A DNA stretch of 64,000 nucleotides from assembly GCF_009914755.1 (NCBI RefSeq), contig NC_060931.1. One strand, written 5' to 3'. Source of the stretch: the human T2T-CHM13v2.0 reference genome, Homo sapiens. The notes under the pieces were generated by a model, which did no database searches, was not told where the DNA came from, and worked only from the letters and a program-made list of their open reading frames with translations. Below are positions 35,286 through 60,084 of the stretch, piece by piece (within the stretch, counting starts at the first letter, position 1; each line of letters begins with the position of its first letter). The position numbers and the translations under genes were made by a program.

Positions 35286-37373
35286 AAAGATTACATAAAT
35301 TCATATGAAGTGCTTAGAAAATGGTTGGTGAAAAATGGTTCTTTTTTTTACTGTAGTAACAGTGAAAGTTCATATATACAGTGCACCGTGACATCATCCG
35401 TATCCAACATTTTGTTCAAATCCATCATTAGCCTCAGTATGATTGATTTTGATGTATTATTAGCCTATAACATTTTAAAAAAATACATTGTTTTGCCACA
35501 CTGTCATTTTTGTGGTATCAAATTAAAGTGACATTTTAAAATATATTTAAAAGCTAAAGTCAATTTATGATGTATCTTTCTATTGTGAACTATCACTTTA
35601 GAAGTAAAGTTTTGATTTTGAGTATTCAACAGAATTTGGCCCATTTTGATCACTTTGACATTAGGAAGTTAACAGCAACAAGGCAATCTTATCAATACAG
35701 TCAAAGAAAAACTGTCACTTTAGGTACCAGCTTGATCAAAAACTCAAATACAGACATGTTTGTAGGTCTGCAGCAGTTCTTGGTTACAGGAAAGTCAGCT
35801 GGATGTTCTCAAGTAGGACTCTACTAATCTTTTCAAATGATTTTAAAATTACAGTATAAAATATCTCATAGGAAATTTGTATATCTTTGATAATACATGG
35901 AGAAATATTTAAGCTTGAGCAAAGTTTTTTGTAGAAATGTAATCTTACAGTTGCTTTTGTGAAATCTTGTACTCTGGCTTAAGCTCTTTGAAGAAAAAAA
36001 AATCTGATTTTTCTACATTTTGCAATCTCTTCATTCTACAAGATATTTGCCATATCAAGTTTGTGAAATGAAATTTAACATGTTGTTTAACACAGCAAAA
36101 TAAAAGAAAAATTAGCTAAGCTTTAATATCCATAAATATGTTAGGATTTTCATTTTTGCTTACATATGAAGTATGATTACTTCTACAATTCCTCAGAGTA
36201 AAAATAAAAATGAAATAAACAAGTATTTTTCTGAGGTATTATTTCCCTGTCTCATCAAAAGATTAAAATCTGTATATCTAGAATGTTATATACTTTCCAC
36301 GTTTTTTCAAACATTTAATCTTCTGTTTATTGCTCTAGAAAAATCTGTCATTACTTTGATATGGCAGATGAAGAGACCAAAAAGCTACTTAGCATGCTAA
36401 AAGCTAGTGGCAGAGCAAGTAGACAAAAGAAACAAAAAATATACACAAAAAAAAGCCCTCGTGATCAATATCGTCTTCACGAACTTTTAGATTGGCAGCT
36501 CTCAAATCCTTTAAGTAACAAGGTGGTTGATAAATAAATACATACCTTATTAAATACAATGGCAAATTGATTTGTTTTGAGAATAACTTCTAGGACTGAG
36601 AAGAACTAAGACTCCCCTGGTTCTGACTCAGAAATCTGTATTAAATTGAAAAGTTCAAATAGGAAAACAAAACTTCAATAAAGGCAGGGACAAAGGTGGG
36701 AGAAAACAAAAAGGAAACATTAAAAGAGAGAAACAAAAAATAAATAAATAAATAAAACTGCTCATAACATTCCTCTGGAGCCATTTATAATTCCTGGGTA
36801 TACTTCAGTATTTAAATTACTTGTCTCTTAATTATCTGGGCTGCAACTTATCACCTGGTCACATGTTTTAAGCAGAACACAAACTAGGCAAGAACAAAGT
36901 AGTGATCGATGGGAATTAGTTCCATGATGTACTATTGATTGCATATAAAAAAGAAGGATTTAGGGTTTATCACATTGCTGAAAAGTGTTTGTTTTCTCCC
37001 ACAGATGTAGCCATTAGTTAGGAGCATAGCATATGGCTGGAGGGTAATTAAGAAGCTGATGCCTCATAGAACGAGGATAAATAAACTAGAGGATGCAACC
37101 ACATTACATCCCTCTGCCCCTACTTGTCTTTGTAACAGAACTTTGGCCCATGTGTAGTGATTCTATTTAATGACATGGAGCACTCTGAGAAAAAGCAAGT
37201 TTAGGAAAGAGAAAAGAAATCCAGAGTACAGTTTGCACATGTTAACTTTAAGGTATCCACTAGACATTCATATGTAGGTATTAAATAAACAGATGTTCAA
37301 AAATATTTCAGTAAAGAAGGCTAGGGCTAGAGATAGAAATTTGGAGGTGAAGCATGAAACTGATAACTAAAAC

Positions 37374-53923: not shown

Positions 53924-54826
53924 GAAGTATTCTTAGTCTTCCTTCCAATTTTATGAGCTGCTTAAACTAAAAAAGTACCTTTGCAGTTACGTAAATAGCA
54001 ATCCCTCACCCCATCGTAAAGTCAGACCCCGTGGTATCCTTTTACCTGATTAAAGCAATTATGGTTTTAAAACATTGTCTCCTATGTGATTTATTAAACT
54101 TCAAATGTGATAGGTGAATTTGTTAATGAACCACAGAAATATTAGTAAAAAATTACTAATTTGTGGAATCTTGTCTCCTTATGTTATTCACTAGCATAGT
54201 AGTAGAGAGAGGTAAGCAACATCTTAATATTTAGCATAGCTCCTCCCTTTTCTCAGTTTCCAGATCATCCTAAAATATGAAGTTAAGACAGAGCTTACAA
54301 GAATCCAAGGGAGAGAGAGAGGAGTCGCAATCTCTCCAAATACATGACTTTCAAGTAAGGCAAACTGACAAAACATAGTAAAAATAATCTCTCCCCAAAT
54401 ACAACCCACAGGAAAGCTCTAGAGAACATGCATGTATTGTCTGAAATTACGCACTGTTAAAGGAAATAGATTAAACTTGATGAAAGCAAGGAAAAGCAGG
54501 CTGTACATACAGAATTGCTCTGGAGATTTCCTGTTTGTCGGGTACTATAGCAGTTCCGCCATCCATCCCTGGAGAGAGCAAATTCACAGAACCTGAAGGG
54601 GAGACTAAAAAGGGCTCTTTTTGACCTTGGATAGTATTTCATCCCTTAAAGACTTAAGAAAGACTTGACATTTGGGAAGAAGTCATCAACAGTGCGGGGG
54701 CCCACTCACATGCCTCTACCACAGGTAAAAGAATGAGGTTAATAAGCTTGTCTCATGACTGTCAGGTTCTGTCACAATTGTCCCTAGTCTTGAAAATACA
54801 GCCATAGCAGATTGCAATAAGTACAT

Positions 54827-55189
54827 TGATATGGTTTGGCTCTGTGTTCCCACCCAAATGTCATGTTGAATTATAATCCCATAATCCCCAGGTGCTGAGG
54901 GCAGGACCTTGTGGGAGGTGATTGGATCATGGGAGCAGTTTCCCCCATGCTGTTCTCGTGATAGTGAGTTCTCACGAGATCTGATGGTTTTATAAGTGTT
55001 TGACAGTTTTTCCTATACACACTCTCTCTCACCTGCTGCCATGTAATACATGCCTGCTTCTCCTTCTGCCATGATTGTAAATTTCCTGAGGCCTCCCAGC
55101 CATATGGAACTGTGAGTCATTTAAACCTCTTTCCTTTATAAATTGCTCAGTCTTGGGTATTTATAGCAGTGTGACAACAAACTAATATG
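54827..55189 (+). mobile_element. THE1D-like (ERVL-MaLR) solo LTR
   Basis: tgatatggtttggctctgtg...ctcacgagatctgatggttttataag...actaatat. 5-bp TSD tacat (54822-54826 / 55190-55194). Confidence 0.93.
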
Positions 55190-55869
55190 TACATTTATAA
55201 AATTCTACAAGATATATTTAAGGAAACAACTGAAGTTAATTTTACTTATTCCTTTCAGAGTTTTTGTGGATGTTGGAATTGTCTGAGGATTTGAGCAGGG
55301 CATTTGAGCCCTTAGCCAGGACTCTGTTATTCGATCCCATGAGAACGGACCTAGCACTGTGAGAAACACATTTCCTCCTTTTAATACTGTAGCTGATTTT
55401 TAAAAAGGGAAAAACAAAAAGTAATTTTTTTACATAGTTAGAAGAGGAAAAGAGACATATTGGCAGGAAGTAAGCAATACAATATAGTTTTTTTAACACC
55501 TGTTGTGGTTATTTATATGATAACCAAATTTACCAAATACCAAATTATATGATGACTAATTTAGTAAGGCCCAAATTACAGTGTCCAGTATGATAGCTAT
55601 ATTTGCAAATATGGAGATAATAAGATGGCTATATGAAATTTGGAACATGCCTGAGCAAATAATATTAACAAAGAACAAAACTTTATCATCCAAGCTTAGA
55701 GCAAGTAACTTTCAGATATTTTCTAGAAAATGTATTTAGCATGTCTGCAAATTTTATATTGATTTACAAAATTTTCAGAATCAGCATTCAAGAATTCTGT
55801 ATTTTGGTACATAATTTCAGTCCTCTCAATACTTGACTCTTAGGCTCATGTAATAGCAAGAGTTCTTGT

Positions 55870-56040
55870 ATGACTGAACTGATTATAGCTCTGTTCATTA
55901 CTAGCTTTTTGAAAATCTTAGGCAAACCTCTTAACCACTCTGCCTCAGTTTCTTTCCTTTGTGAAATGAACAATAATAATTCCTATCCGTAAAGTTAGGG
56001 TGAGGATAAAACAAAATCTACAAAACTATTTGAAAAAGAA
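55870..56040 (+). mobile_element. MIR SINE
   Basis: cttaggcaaacctcttaaccactctgcctcagtttctttcctttgtgaaatg is the MIR core. Confidence 0.65.
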
Positions 56041-56645
56041 TTAAGAGAAAAGAAACAAAGTATTATTTTCACACATAAACCATTTGTTAGGGTGAGGATT
56101 AAGATTCACTCAAAGCCATCTCAGCCCATGGTGTGGTGCAGCTGGGAACATGACTGCATAAATATATCACCCATTACCATTTCTTTTTCTTCCTTTATCT
56201 CTTAACAAAATATAGCTGGCTTTTCTGGCTTCTTCCATAGCTTCTTTGGTAATCATCATATTCCAAGTCCTTTTACTGACACACTGACACATTCTTCTCC
56301 TAACATTCTTTTCAGAGACACCCTTGTTTATCCCTTAAGTTTTCTTGCACTTGATATAACCATGTCTTCCTGGTCTCTGATGCTGATCACTGCACTCTGA
56401 TAAGTAAAATGACAAGAATACCTTCCATAAATTAAAAAAAAATGGGGTTCACTGTTAACTGATTTCACATTGAGAAAAGTTATTCTGATGTTTTCAAAAT
56501 TGCTTAGTTCTATTTCAAAATTCAAAACCAGCATAATTTTAAGTTAGCTGAATAGGGCATCTGGATATGTAGGCATATTTATTTTTGAAAAGGGTTAAGG
56601 GCTTGATAACAGAGAAGGCAGAGTTCCTTTCTCAAATCTTAAGCA

Positions 56646-56888
56646 ATAAATCCTTCACAATAATTTATGATAAGAACCTTAACAAGGGCAGTGACCACAG
56701 GAAGAAAGAGAAGATATGACAGGCAAAAAAAGTCCTATGGAAAATGGAGTCAACAATACTGATTGCAACTGTAAAAATTGTTGACTCCATTTTCCATAGG
56801 ACTTATTTTGCCTGTCATATCTTCTCTTTCTTCCTGTGGTCACTGCCCTTGTTAAGGTTCTTATCATAAATAATTGTGGAGGATTTAT
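56646..56888. repeat. Long near-perfect inverted repeat (112-bp arms, 19-nt spacer)
   Basis: 56646-56757 is the reverse complement of 56777-56888, with 3 substitutions and no indels. Confidence 0.98.
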
Positions 56889-57099
56889 CAGAGGATGGGA
56901 AAGCCAGATGTTTCCTAGATAAATAATTCAATAGTGATGTTGTCAACCGTGTAGAGAATGCTGACCCCTCAGCATCTAAGCTAGTAAACCATGGCTGTCC
57001 TTCAGATACCAGTCTCTCTCTAGAACCTCCACACGTTTGTATTTGCTGGGCCCTTTTGTAGTACGTATTACTTTTCTCTCTCCTTTTCTCCTTAGAAAT

Positions 57100-57380
57100 C
57101 TTTTTCATAGTGATGTCGGAAGTTTTCATCTCTTTTAGGAAACTTTTTTGAACCATCCAGCAGCTACAGATTCCCTTCTGTTGCTTCTTGACCTGCTGCT
57201 TCTCATACTCCTGTGGTAGTACCTGTACTTTGTATTATAATTGTTTGCAAGTTCATCTCCTGGTCCTCAAGGACAGGGCTGTGCTTTGCACATCTTAATG
57301 CCCTCAGCACAGCAAACAATTCCAGGCATGTGATATAGAGTCTACAGATTCTATAAATGTATACCAAAAACATGAATGGT
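57100..57380 (+). mobile_element. L2 3' end fragment
   Basis: actttgtattataattgtttg...ctcaaggacagggctgtg...catcttaatgccctcagcac...ataaatgt...atgaatg. Confidence 0.55.
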
Positions 57381-60084
57381 AGGATAATGAGTTAGGCTTG
57401 TTTTCTTGAGCATGAATGGAGAGATACTAATTATGTAGTTAAAAACATGAATCAGGAACACAAGGGGAAAGGATATTGAGACAGGCACACAGATATGAAT
57501 GTGGGATTGATTTAGGTCACTGAGAAAGAATGGGTGTCAGAAAAAAATAAAGATGACTACAGTCGTCTTACAGAAACCAAGAGGAGAAAATGTGCCAGAT
57601 GGAGGAAGTTGTTAATAGTGTCAAGCAAAGCTGCTTCCTTCTTTATAAAATGTGAAATATAACACTTAATACACAGGAATATGTTGAGAACTAGATTGGA
57701 TAATATATGGAAAATGCTTAAAACAATGGCAGGAACAAAATGGTTACGAATAATCGTTTCAAAATAAAATACAATAATAATTGAAATGACAAAACTAGAT
57801 TTGGCAATTAGGAAGTAAGTATATGGTAATGACCACCATAGGAACAGCCTCGTTAGAAAGGAAGGGGCAGAAGCTTAATTTCTGTGTGGTGAGCAATAAA
57901 AATGGAATGGAAAAATAAAACAGCAAGTGGATACTTTCCACTTAAAAACTACATTGATGAAGGACAGGAGAGAGCTTGGGAGCTTCTGGAGCAGACAATA
58001 TTGTGTAAGAAATGTTAGGTTGTAGAAAATGAGACTTTTGAGCACGTATATAGCAGAAGAGAACGAACCAATAGAGAGGAAGAAATATTAGATCAGGGGA
58101 GGACAGAAAAGAAGGAGCTATGGAGGGGTCCACACAGCTTGGCATTCATGGAAAATTAAGGGAGGTTATGGGGGTTCTCCCTTTTCCACAGGATGGGAGA
58201 TGAGGTTTCCTGATAAACGAAGGGCTTAAGAGTAGTTCAGAAGTTTAAGAGAAGTCATGAATATGTTGAGTAGTCATGAGAATGAGAACGGAAACTGAAA
58301 AGTGAGAATGGAAGAAAAAGAGAGAAATTATTAAACTGCATTTGTGACTGTCAGTCCTTGCCTGCCTTGGTTTTACCCATCTGACCACAAAAACTGCCTG
58401 CTACCCACAAGGTTAGTCCCTCATCACTGAGAGTTCCTTTTTTCCTACCGGGGAATAGAGGTGAGTCCAGAGATGAGCTGTTGTTGCCCAGAGCCAAAAT
58501 CAGCAATGGGCAGAATGCTGGGCACTGAAAGAATTAATCCATTGCTGCCCACAGAAATGAGCCAAGTGGAAACATTTCCAGTGGGTCAAACAAAATCAAG
58601 GTTAACATTACCCGGATTCAAAGCACGGAATTAAAAAAAAAAACTTTAAGGTCATTTTAATTTAAATGTTATAACCTGGTATCTTGAATATGAAGTTCCA
58701 GGCCTCCAGAAGGTGATACAAGAAATCAACATGAAGGCATCAAAAAATCATTTCTAGCCATAATTATGGGAAAGTAATTTTCATGTCTTTTGCTGCTTTC
58801 AAATCATTTTAGTTTTCAGCAAAAGCTCTGCCACCAGCTCTTCTGCCTCCTTTCCACAATAACTTTCTCATGCTCCCACTACACCCCATCCAACCAACTT
58901 CAACCAGGGAAGATTAAGGAAGAGTCTTTCTCTAAGTCTCTCTCTCTCTCTCTTTTTTTTGTTTGTTTTTTCAAGTTTCCAATGTCAGTAGTACCTAACT
59001 AATTAAATTCAAGATAAGGTTTTCGAGAAATTCTTAAGAATGGATGAAATAAGGTAGGTTTATAAGGAGACTGTGACCTGTGCAAGGAGTAATCTCCCGA
59101 TCCAGACATTCAAAGGGCCCAGGGTTCCTTCTCAGGTGCATCCAGACATTGGTTCACCACCACAGGCCCAGGAACTTAGCCCACTTCCCTCTCCTTTCTG
59201 GGGGACCAGTACCCTCTCTATGACTTGGATTTCTGGGCCATCCCCCTCATAACTGGATATAAAACAGGTCACATTCTTTTCAACTCTTCCCACCTTCATC
59301 CCTTCTACCCACTTTCCTCATCCTTTCTTTGCTACCACTAAAGACTCACACCAGATATACTTACATTTAAGTGTCGTACTGCTTAACATTAAGAGGCAAA
59401 TAAACAGGAGGTGATCAACATAATTAATCAGGGGGTGACACATTTTAAGGTATCTCACAAAGTTCTTACAATGTGTATCCCTGCTCTGTAATTCATGACT
59501 CATGGGTTGAGGTACTAAGTGGAAGCTTTTGGGCTACAGCTCTGTGCTTTGGCTCTCTCAAGCCTACGTAGATGCCTAAAATCACCCAACTAGAGTGCAG
59601 AGCAAGGCCTTGATATCAGGTCTGCCAGGCCCCAAAGCCAATTTCATAACAGTTTTGCTATTTTGGTCCAAAGTACAGATTGAAGACCTGCCAAGCTATA
59701 TGAGCTTCATTTACCTGATAAGCATTATCTAAATTTATCTGACAGTTTTTATTCTTGAGGATGGAATGTTATCATAACTTTCACATATTTTTCTTCTCCA
59801 GATTATTTGTTAAAATGGTTATTAGAAATCCAACTATATCCTGGTGTTGGTCTCCTAATAACCTTCACAGTAAAGTGCCTCTGACCTTACATGTTGAAGG
59901 TTGACCTTCCAGTGTCAAGGCATCTTGGTTCTAGAAAACCATAAAACACTGCCACGGGCCCTCACTTCTCTTTGGTCCAACTAAGTGACCTATCTGTATG
60001 AAAATACACAAGTGGGCAGGGGTAGGGAGAGACTGAAAGCTGTTCTATCTTTCCCATACTCAGAAGAACACTGGGTTGGCTTTA

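What the first reader, a model, noticed from the sequence alone, without database searches (positions are those of the whole stretch)
56646..56888. 243-bp near-perfect fold-back: 112-bp arms, 3 mismatches, 19-nt loop, not a pair of known inverted TEs
Seen: 56646-56757 pairs with 56777-56888 without gaps. There are only three substitutions (one is a U-G wobble in + strand RNA), and the loop is actgattgcaactgtaaaa. The arms are complex sequence, not Alu, L1 or a MITE I recognise, and I see no TSD. Established: long palindromes with short spacers can extrude cruciforms, stall replication forks and promote rearrangement. More than 100 bp of dsRNA is a substrate for ADAR, Dicer/Drosha and PKR, and many young primate miRNA or endo-siRNA loci arise from local inverted duplications. 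Inference: the left arm plus loop loosely resembles an ancient L2 remnant, so ~97% arm identity implies either a recent fold-back duplication or ongoing arm-to-arm gene conversion. It is a candidate lineage-specific hairpin RNA locus that folds whichever strand is transcribed.
Basis: partly seen in the sequence, partly recalled or inferred. Interest (0 to 1): 0.9.

Follow-up and report, generated by a model that had tools for sequence, protein, structure and literature searches.

The report
Single-copy 243-bp fold-back in intergenic DNA
A real, near-perfect 243-base inverted repeat sits in unique intergenic human DNA; it looks like a local inverted duplication of a known kind, and nothing found here shows that it makes a functional RNA.

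Summary
Arms 56646-56757 and 56777-56888 (112 nt) pair without gaps, with 3 mismatches and a 19-nt spacer. Pairing stops abruptly at both outer ends, and there is no target-site duplication. Either strand folds far better than shuffles (z -28 to -34).

It is not a repeat family at the sensitivity I had. Whole-genome searches of the T2T assembly with the palindrome, one arm plus spacer, and a 26-mer at up to 3 mismatches found only this locus. Both flanks are unique. No Rfam family reaches its threshold, and no transposon protein remnant lies nearby.

Best reading: a local inverted duplication by replication template switch or fold-back. Three differences in 112 CpG-free sites put it at roughly 13-27 Myr (95% range 3-78 Myr), if the arms have not been homogenised.

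The hairpin-RNA idea is untested. No transcript is annotated, T-runs on both strands argue against Pol III, and the stem is about three times canonical miRNA length.

No primate outgroup, other human assembly, Dfam library or expression data was available. Origin, age and the L2 suggestion therefore remain inferences. It is a new member of a known kind, of modest interest.

The parts
56646..56757 (.). Left arm of the inverted repeat, 112 nt, 35% G+C, no CpG
56758..56776 (.). 19-nt asymmetric spacer (loop). Its self-complementarity is no better than shuffles. It contains one palindromic hexamer, TTGCAA, at 56763-56768, 1.5 nt off the symmetry axis (56767)
   Evidence: 52% of 5000 shuffles score as well
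56777..56888 (.). Right arm, reverse complement of the left arm, 109 of 112 positions matching
56655..56655 (.). Mismatch 1 (T opposite G at 56879): U-G wobble in + strand RNA
56662..56662 (.). Mismatch 2 (A opposite A at 56872)
56729..56729 (.). Mismatch 3 (A opposite A at 56805)

Best explanation
This is a single-locus quasi-palindrome made by a local inverted duplication. One arm plus the spacer was ordinary unique intergenic DNA. During replication or break repair the growing strand switched template (onto the opposite strand, or folded back on itself), copied about 112 nt in reverse-complement orientation, and then returned. That left a sharply bounded second arm with no target-site duplication. 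The arms have since picked up 3 substitutions. Today it is most likely a neutral structural relic. As DNA it can form a hairpin on a single-stranded lagging-strand template or, less readily because of the 19-nt spacer, a cruciform, so it is a mild at-risk site for fork stalling or deletion. It would form a long dsRNA only if something transcribed through it. Shown: the structure, its sharp edges, the lack of a TSD, and single-copy status at the search sensitivity used. Inferred: the mechanism, the age, and the lack of function.
For: (1) Geometry: gap-free 112-nt arms, 109 of 112 paired, abrupt loss of pairing outside, no TSD and no flank repeat. (2) Not a dispersed family. Genome-wide DNA searches with the whole palindrome and with arm plus spacer each gave 1 first-look candidate, the locus itself. 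A 26-mer from the arm at up to 3 mismatches matched 1 forward and 1 reverse place in 3.1 Gb, namely the two arms, with 0 for the reversed control. The same tool does find 83-90% identical repeat copies and a 52-nt 87% match, so copies up to about 15% diverged should have been seen. (3) Flanks 55250-56645 and 56889-58400 are unique. (4) No diverged source copy nearby. Word-7 blastn against the rest of the window gave a best E of 0.20, against the next 60 kb a best E of 0.022 over 21 nt, and against 9 unrelated loci a best E of 0.12. (5) 3 differences in 112 CpG-free sites is 2.7% (Poisson 95% 0.55-7.8%). That is 13 Myr at 1e-9 per site per year or 27 Myr at 0.5e-9, with an overall range of 2.8-78 Myr (the rates are from my own knowledge). 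(6) The mechanism is documented. Template-switch mutations create whole hairpins in one event; 53,666 putative events, 31,007 of them forming a new stem, were inferred in genic regions on the primate-to-human lineage (PMC10710096, abstract and passages). The same mechanism can keep stems matched (PMC8794818, passages).
Against: No outgroup or second human assembly could be examined. The defining proof, one arm absent in an ancestor, is therefore missing, and which arm is older is unknown. I found no microhomology at the inner or outer junctions by eye, and the spacer shows no remnant of a short initiating palindrome beyond one hexamer that is off-axis and not above chance. The passages I read did not give the length distribution of template-switch events, and 112 nt may lie at its long end. 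The whole-genome searches use a word-based first look and cannot see families more than roughly 20% diverged.
Confidence: 0.68

Rival explanations
1. It is a lineage-specific hairpin RNA gene. The locus is transcribed and the 112-bp stem is diced into endo-siRNAs or miRNA-like RNAs, or serves as an ADAR or dsRNA-sensor substrate with a biological role.
For: Either strand would fold into a very stable hairpin. One of the 3 mismatches is a U-G wobble on the + strand. New primate miRNAs do arise from such inverted copies: at least 18 human miRNA genes are attributed to template switching (PMC10710096, abstract).
Against: The hub table lists no gene in the window, and the nearest lncRNAs are more than 50 kb away. 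0 of 29 Rfam matches at E up to 10 reach their gathering score. The best are plant long-hairpin miRNA families, a plant snoRNA and bacterial sRNAs, often matching on both strands, so they are generic hairpin matches. The whole window has 0 matches at gathering. T4-T7 runs inside the hairpin on both strands would stop Pol III (the termination rule is from my own knowledge). Canonical miRNA stems are 30-35 bp and vertebrates are said to lack long miRNA hairpins (start of abstract of PMC12553114). The TSM paper's own section heading calls a promoter the limiting factor for new miRNA genes, and it finds the TSM-derived miRNAs enriched in introns; this locus is intergenic. Three mismatches are too few to test for selection on pairing.
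Confidence: 0.05
2. It is an old, low-copy palindromic non-autonomous DNA transposon (MITE) or another ancient repeat, whose arms have been kept alike by hairpin-templated correction.
For: Size and palindromic form resemble MITEs. My genome searches cannot see families more than about 20% diverged. Template switching can homogenise stems (PMC8794818, passages).
Against: There is no second copy in 3.1 Gb at the sensitivities reached. There is no TSD of any length from 3 to 10 nt. The bases outside the ends are not TA or TTAA. DNA transposons of the human lineage were last active at least 37 Myr ago (PMC2268245, abstract), so an insertion of that age should show arms far more than 2.7% apart. 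No transposase or reverse-transcriptase remnant appears in 31 nearby open frames. No transposon-derived miRNA family appears among the 29 Rfam matches.
Confidence: 0.08
3. It is a break-repair product rather than a replication slip. A double-strand break was capped by a hairpin or extended by snap-back synthesis, giving a perfect palindrome whose centre was later rearranged into the present asymmetric 19-nt spacer, which stabilised it.
For: Abrupt edges and no TSD fit this as well as they fit template switching. All the asymmetry is concentrated in the centre while the arms are 97% alike. Shorter spacers make palindromes less stable (review PMC7999016, passages), so survivors are expected to carry a spacer.
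Against: The spacer shows no above-chance trace of former symmetry. Nothing in the sequence separates this route from template switching. A chromosome break repaired this way usually also loses or duplicates flanking DNA, which cannot be checked without an outgroup.
Confidence: 0.15
4. It is an assembly or cell-line artefact of this one genome.
For: Only one assembly could be examined. Fold-back chimeras occur in long reads (own knowledge).
Against: A fresh fold-back would have identical arms, whereas these differ at 3 sites, which corresponds to millions of years of mutation. A 243-bp structure lies well inside single long reads, and the flanks are unique and continuous.
Confidence: 0.02

Closest known systems
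Long inverted repeats / quasi-palindromes of the human genome ('recombinogenic LIRs', Wang and Leung, as cited in the Lirex paper PMC5414712)
   Same: Arms of at least 30 bp, identity above 85%, and a spacer under 20 bp, the range in which inverted Alu pairs are labile (passages). More than 100 such LIRs are reported in the human genome.
   Different: The arm/spacer ratio is 112/19 = 5.9, below the value of 16 quoted for strong recombinogenicity. The arms are unique sequence rather than a pair of Alus or other repeats.
Template-switch mutation (TSM) hairpins (Loytynoja and Goldman; Monttinen et al., PMC10710096 and PMC8794818)
   Same: A reverse-complement copy of adjacent sequence that creates a near-perfect stem in a single event, with sharp edges and no TSD.
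   Different: The ancestral state was not seen here. The stem is about three times the length of a miRNA hairpin. The locus is intergenic with no known promoter.
PATRRs (palindromic AT-rich repeats on 11q23, 22q11, 17q11 and 8q24)
   Same: A near-perfect palindrome a few hundred bp long that can form a hairpin or cruciform.
   Different: PATRRs are described as more than 90% AT and near-perfect (review PMC7999016, passages). This one is 65% AT and has a 19-nt asymmetric spacer. No translocation is known here.
Palindromic MITEs of the human genome (for example MER85, 140 nt, 613 copies; PMC2268245)
   Same: Short, non-coding, with inverted-repeat architecture.
   Different: Single copy, no TSD, and arms far too similar for an element last mobile at least 37 Myr ago.
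Hairpin-RNA (hpRNA) endo-siRNA loci of flies and mouse oocytes
   Same: A long inverted repeat able to give more than 100 bp of dsRNA.
   Different: No evidence of transcription or small RNAs here. The comparison with the mouse oocyte loci rests on my own recall, not on a call.

Membership tests
MITE / non-autonomous DNA transposon | Many dispersed copies in the genome | tested here: not met
   Only the locus itself was found with the full element, with arm plus spacer, and with a 26-mer at up to 3 mismatches. The sensitivity limit is about 80-85% identity.
MITE / non-autonomous DNA transposon | Target-site duplication flanking the element | tested here: not met
   No shared 3-10-mer within 3 nt of both ends, and flank-to-flank similarity is no better than shuffles.
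MITE / non-autonomous DNA transposon | Terminal inverted repeats matching a known superfamily consensus | not testable with these tools
   No Dfam or Repbase library was on hand. By eye, the bases outside the ends are not TA or TTAA.
Canonical miRNA precursor | Match to a curated miRNA family at its gathering score | tested here: not met
   0 of 29 matches at E up to 10 reach gathering. The best is plant MIR831 at 67.6 bits against 100, and mir-192 scores 31.5 against 54. The whole window gives 0.
Canonical miRNA precursor | Stem of about 30-35 bp with a terminal loop under 15 nt | tested here: not met
   The stem is 112 bp and the loop 19 nt. The criterion comes from the start of the abstract of PMC12553114.
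Canonical miRNA precursor / hpRNA locus | Transcription, and 21-23-nt reads with 2-nt 3' overhangs | not testable with these tools
   No expression data were available. No gene is annotated in the window (hub table).
Recombinogenic long inverted repeat (Lobachev / Wang-Leung criteria) | Arms of at least 30 bp, identity above 85%, spacer under 20 bp | tested here: met
   112 bp, 97%, 19 nt. The criteria are from passages of PMC5414712.
Recombinogenic long inverted repeat (Lobachev / Wang-Leung criteria) | Arm/spacer ratio above 16 for strong effect | tested here: not met
   112/19 = 5.9.
Template-switch mutation product | Reverse-complement copy of immediately adjacent sequence with sharp ends | tested here: met
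Template-switch mutation product | Ancestral or outgroup sequence lacking the copy | not testable with these tools
   No primate genome or other human assembly was held. Scans of two public collections with the 26-mer found 0.
PATRR | More than 90% AT, near-perfect, essentially no spacer | tested here: not met
   Arms are 65% AT with a 19-nt spacer. The definition is from passages of PMC7999016.

The most novel reading that the evidence does not exclude
A hominoid-age fold-back of unique sequence that is transcribed in some germline or early-embryonic setting and yields endo-siRNAs or an ADAR/dsRNA-sensor substrate. That would make it a vertebrate long hairpin-RNA locus born in one mutational step. 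Alternatively, it could be a natural palindrome sitting right at the 20-bp spacer limit for instability, kept matched by hairpin-templated correction, which would make it a tractable human model for palindrome maintenance.
Probability: 0.05. Interest if true: 0.65.

Novelty: new member of a known kind. Interest (0 to 1): 0.3.

Why it matters
If the reading is right, this is one clean human example of how a single replication or repair error creates a long perfect hairpin from unique DNA. Events of that kind are the raw material proposed for new miRNA genes. Its 19-nt spacer and 97% arm identity fall just inside the range where inverted Alu pairs are unstable. That makes it a reasonable place to look in pangenome data for arm deletions, loop inversions or arm homogenisation. 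By itself, without transcription or instability data, it is a structural curiosity rather than a functional element.

Tried and rejected
I then ran one typed 26-mer at the permitted 3 mismatches.
- I built a sequence-only model of the arm to reach more diverged copies, but this genome cannot be searched with a model. Families more than about 20% diverged therefore remain unexcluded.
- Six-frame translation of 54500-59000 for Pfam was rejected because of stop codons. I scanned 31 of the 58 stop-free frames of at least 45 aa listed, those between 55205 and 58634 apart from two near 58400-58600. None of the 31 reached a cutoff. Three had weak, unrelated matches (SF3A2; PAP_assoc; Glycophorin_A with BPD_transp_1), and none was a transposon domain.
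- Degenerate-continuation idea: the spacer is no more self-complementary than shuffles, so I dropped it.
- Outer extension of the repeat, flank direct repeats and flank-to-arm similarity were all at shuffle level.
- Diverged paralogue nearby: none in the window, in the next 60 kb, or in 9 unrelated loci.
- Exact 26-mer searches found 0 in each of the paper library, genome contigs and viral contigs.
- The GAP-Seq paper (PMC4057610, passages) deals with tumour palindromes and says nothing about this locus.
- No tandem repeat lies in 54000-59500.
- One paper search failed on term length and was rerun.
- The L2 suggestion could not be tested at all.

Full report
**1. Observation**

- Positions 56646-56757 pair without gaps with 56777-56888. 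The arms are 112 nt and 97% complementary, and the spacer is 19 nt at 56758-56776.
- The three mismatches are:
  - 56655 T opposite 56879 G, a U-G wobble in + strand RNA but a C/A mismatch in - strand RNA;
  - 56662 A opposite 56872 A;
  - 56729 A opposite 56805 A.
- Perfect runs along the arm are 9, 6, 66 and 28 nt.
- The arms are 35% G+C, close to the window's 37%, and contain no CpG.

The structure is far beyond chance (0 of 200 shuffles as good in each case):

| Fold | Energy (kcal/mol) | Shuffles | z |
|---|---|---|---|
| + strand RNA | -193.2 | -54.3 +/- 4.9 | -28.5 |
| - strand RNA | -187.8 | -53.6 +/- 4.0 | -33.6 |
| + strand, DNA parameters | -124.4 | -21.5 +/- 3.4 | -30.6 |

It is the only long, closely spaced inverted repeat in the 64-kb window. 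The only other pair found is 31 nt, 74% complementary and AT-rich.

**2. Anatomy of the edges and centre**

- Complementarity ends abruptly. 0 of the first 6 and 6 of the first 30 flanking position pairs are complementary, about what chance gives.
- A gapped alignment of the 400-nt left flank against the reverse complement of the right flank scores no better than 61% of 300 shuffles.
- There is no target-site duplication. No shared 3-10-mer lies within 3 nt of both ends, and the flanks share no direct repeat above shuffles.
- The spacer is truly asymmetric. Its self-complementarity is matched by 52% of 5000 shuffles. It holds one palindromic hexamer (TTGCAA, 56763-56768), 1.5 nt off the symmetry axis at 56767, which is not significant on its own.
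- No tandem repeat lies in 54000-59500.

**3. Is it a repeat family?**

I searched the window's own 3.1-Gb assembly several ways.

| Query | Result |
|---|---|
| Full 243 bp | 1 first-look candidate: the locus itself on both strands |
| Left arm plus spacer | The locus (100%) and the other arm (97% over 1-112) |
| 26-mer from the arm, up to 3 mismatches | 1 forward and 1 reverse place (the two arms); 0 for the reversed control |
| Left flank 55250-56645 | Self plus one 52-nt, 87% match on contig 8 |
| Right flank 56889-58400 | Self only |

The tool is able to see diverged repeats. A 3.5-kb query gave 6415 first-look candidates, of which 40 were scored. All 39 non-self matches fell on window 55000-55207 at 83-90% identity.

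So neither the palindrome nor its flanks belong to any family less than roughly 15-20% diverged.

Sensitive local comparisons (blastn, word size 7) found nothing beyond short AT-rich words.
- Rest of the window: 54 hits at E up to 10, best E 0.20.
- The next 60 kb: 19 hits, best E 0.022 over 21 nt.
- Nine unrelated loci: 29 hits, best E 0.12.

I scanned 31 of the 58 stop-free frames of at least 45 aa listed around the site against Pfam. None reached a cutoff, and none matched a transposase, reverse transcriptase or endonuclease.

**4. Is it a known RNA?**

- Rfam in permissive mode over 56000-57500 listed 29 matches at E up to 10, and none reached its gathering score.
- The best were plant long-hairpin miRNA families (MIR831 at 67.6 against 100 bits; MIR2118, MIR2871, MIR2912, MIR398), a plant snoRNA and bacterial sRNAs. 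Several matched both strands equally.
- The alignments are carried by paired columns rather than by sequence, so they are generic long-hairpin matches.
- The whole window has 0 matches at gathering.
- The exact 26-mer appears in no paper of the searchable library.

**5. Age**

Three differences in 112 CpG-free sites is 2.7%, with a Poisson 95% range of 0.55-7.8%.

| Assumed rate (per site per year) | Point estimate | 95% range |
|---|---|---|
| 1e-9 | 13 Myr | 2.8-39 Myr |
| 0.5e-9 | 27 Myr | 5.5-78 Myr |

- The rates come from my own knowledge, not from a call.
- These are minimum ages if the arms are being homogenised.
- Template switching is reported to restore pairing in stems (PMC8794818, passages).
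- The mismatches also argue against a read-level or cell-line fold-back artefact, which would have identical arms.

**6. Most likely origin and working**

The combination of features points to a local inverted duplication: unique sequence, one locus, sharp ends, no TSD and young arms. The growing strand would have switched template or folded back, copied about 112 nt in reverse complement, and returned.

This mechanism is well described. Template-switch mutations generate whole hairpins in one event. On the primate-to-human lineage, 53,666 putative events were inferred in genic regions, and 31,007 of them formed a new stem (PMC10710096, abstract and passages). I did not see a length distribution in the passages I read, and 112 nt may be at the long end.

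A break-repair route cannot be told apart from this without an outgroup. That route would be a hairpin-capped or snap-back end giving a perfect palindrome whose centre was later rearranged.

As DNA, the site falls in the at-risk range.
- Inverted Alus less than 20 bp apart and more than 85% identical are labile (Lobachev et al., as cited in PMC5414712, passages).
- Here the spacer is 19 nt and the arms are about a third of an Alu. The arm/spacer ratio is 5.9, below the value of 16 quoted for strong effects.

I therefore expect mild hairpin-forming potential at most.

**7. The RNA hypothesis**

Nothing I could test supports it.
- No gene is annotated in the window, and the nearest lncRNAs are more than 50 kb away (hub table).
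- Runs of 4-7 T lie inside the hairpin on both strands: + strand at 56790-56793 and 56806-56809; - strand at 56777-56773, 56744-56741 and 56731-56725. These would stop Pol III; that rule is from my own knowledge.
- Canonical miRNA hairpins have 30-35-bp stems and loops under 15 nt, and vertebrates are said to lack long miRNA hairpins (start of the abstract of PMC12553114 as listed).
- The TSM paper finds TSM-derived miRNAs enriched in introns, and one of its section headings names a promoter as the limiting factor for new miRNA genes.

Expression, editing and small-RNA data were not available, so the idea is unlikely rather than refuted.

**8. Comparison with known kinds**

- **Long inverted repeats.** It meets the length, identity and spacer criteria of the 'recombinogenic' long inverted repeats, of which more than 100 are reported in the human genome (PMC5414712, passages). 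It does not meet the arm/spacer ratio criterion.
- **Template-switch product.** It has the form of one, but the defining ancestral state is untested.
- **MITE.** It fails two defining features, copy number and TSD. Its arm identity is also hard to square with DNA transposons last active at least 37 Myr ago (PMC2268245, abstract).
- **PATRR.** It is not one: the arms are 65% AT with a 19-nt spacer, against more than 90% AT and near-perfect symmetry.
- **Palindrome catalogue.** The catalogue that counts 718 human palindromes over 200 bp allows no spacer (described in PMC7999016). By my inference it would probably not list this locus.

**9. What remains open**

No primate outgroup, second human assembly, Dfam library or expression data could be consulted. 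The following therefore rest on inference or remain untested:
- the origin of the structure;
- which arm is ancestral;
- the age;
- the absence of function.

**10. Verdict**

This is a real and striking structure. It is most likely a neutral, hominoid- to catarrhine-age local inverted duplication, a new member of a known kind, and of modest interest (0.3).

Noticed in passing
window 54903-55207: A high-copy interspersed repeat. A genome search gave 6415 first-look candidates, and all 39 scored non-self matches fell on window 55000-55207 at 83-90% identity (sequence read). I did not name the family.
   Followed up: partly
window 56815-57234 (- strand): A 139-codon stop-free frame overlaps the right arm. 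It has no Pfam match. By my rough estimate, about one frame of this length is expected by chance in a 64-kb AT-rich window.
   Followed up: partly
L019 1-340 and 8250-8600 (about 10 and 18 kb beyond the right end of the window): Two TA-rich simple-sequence tracts that give many short inverted repeats in my crude scan. They are low-complexity sequence, not comparable to the complex-sequence palindrome.
   Followed up: partly
window 55936-55987: A 52-nt stretch 87% identical to contig 8:130331112-130331161, the only non-self match of the left flank. Possibly a fragment of an old repeat.
   Followed up: no
window 35523-35553 / 35829-35859: A weak AT-rich inverted repeat: 31 nt, 74% complementary, 275 nt apart. 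Probably chance.
   Followed up: no
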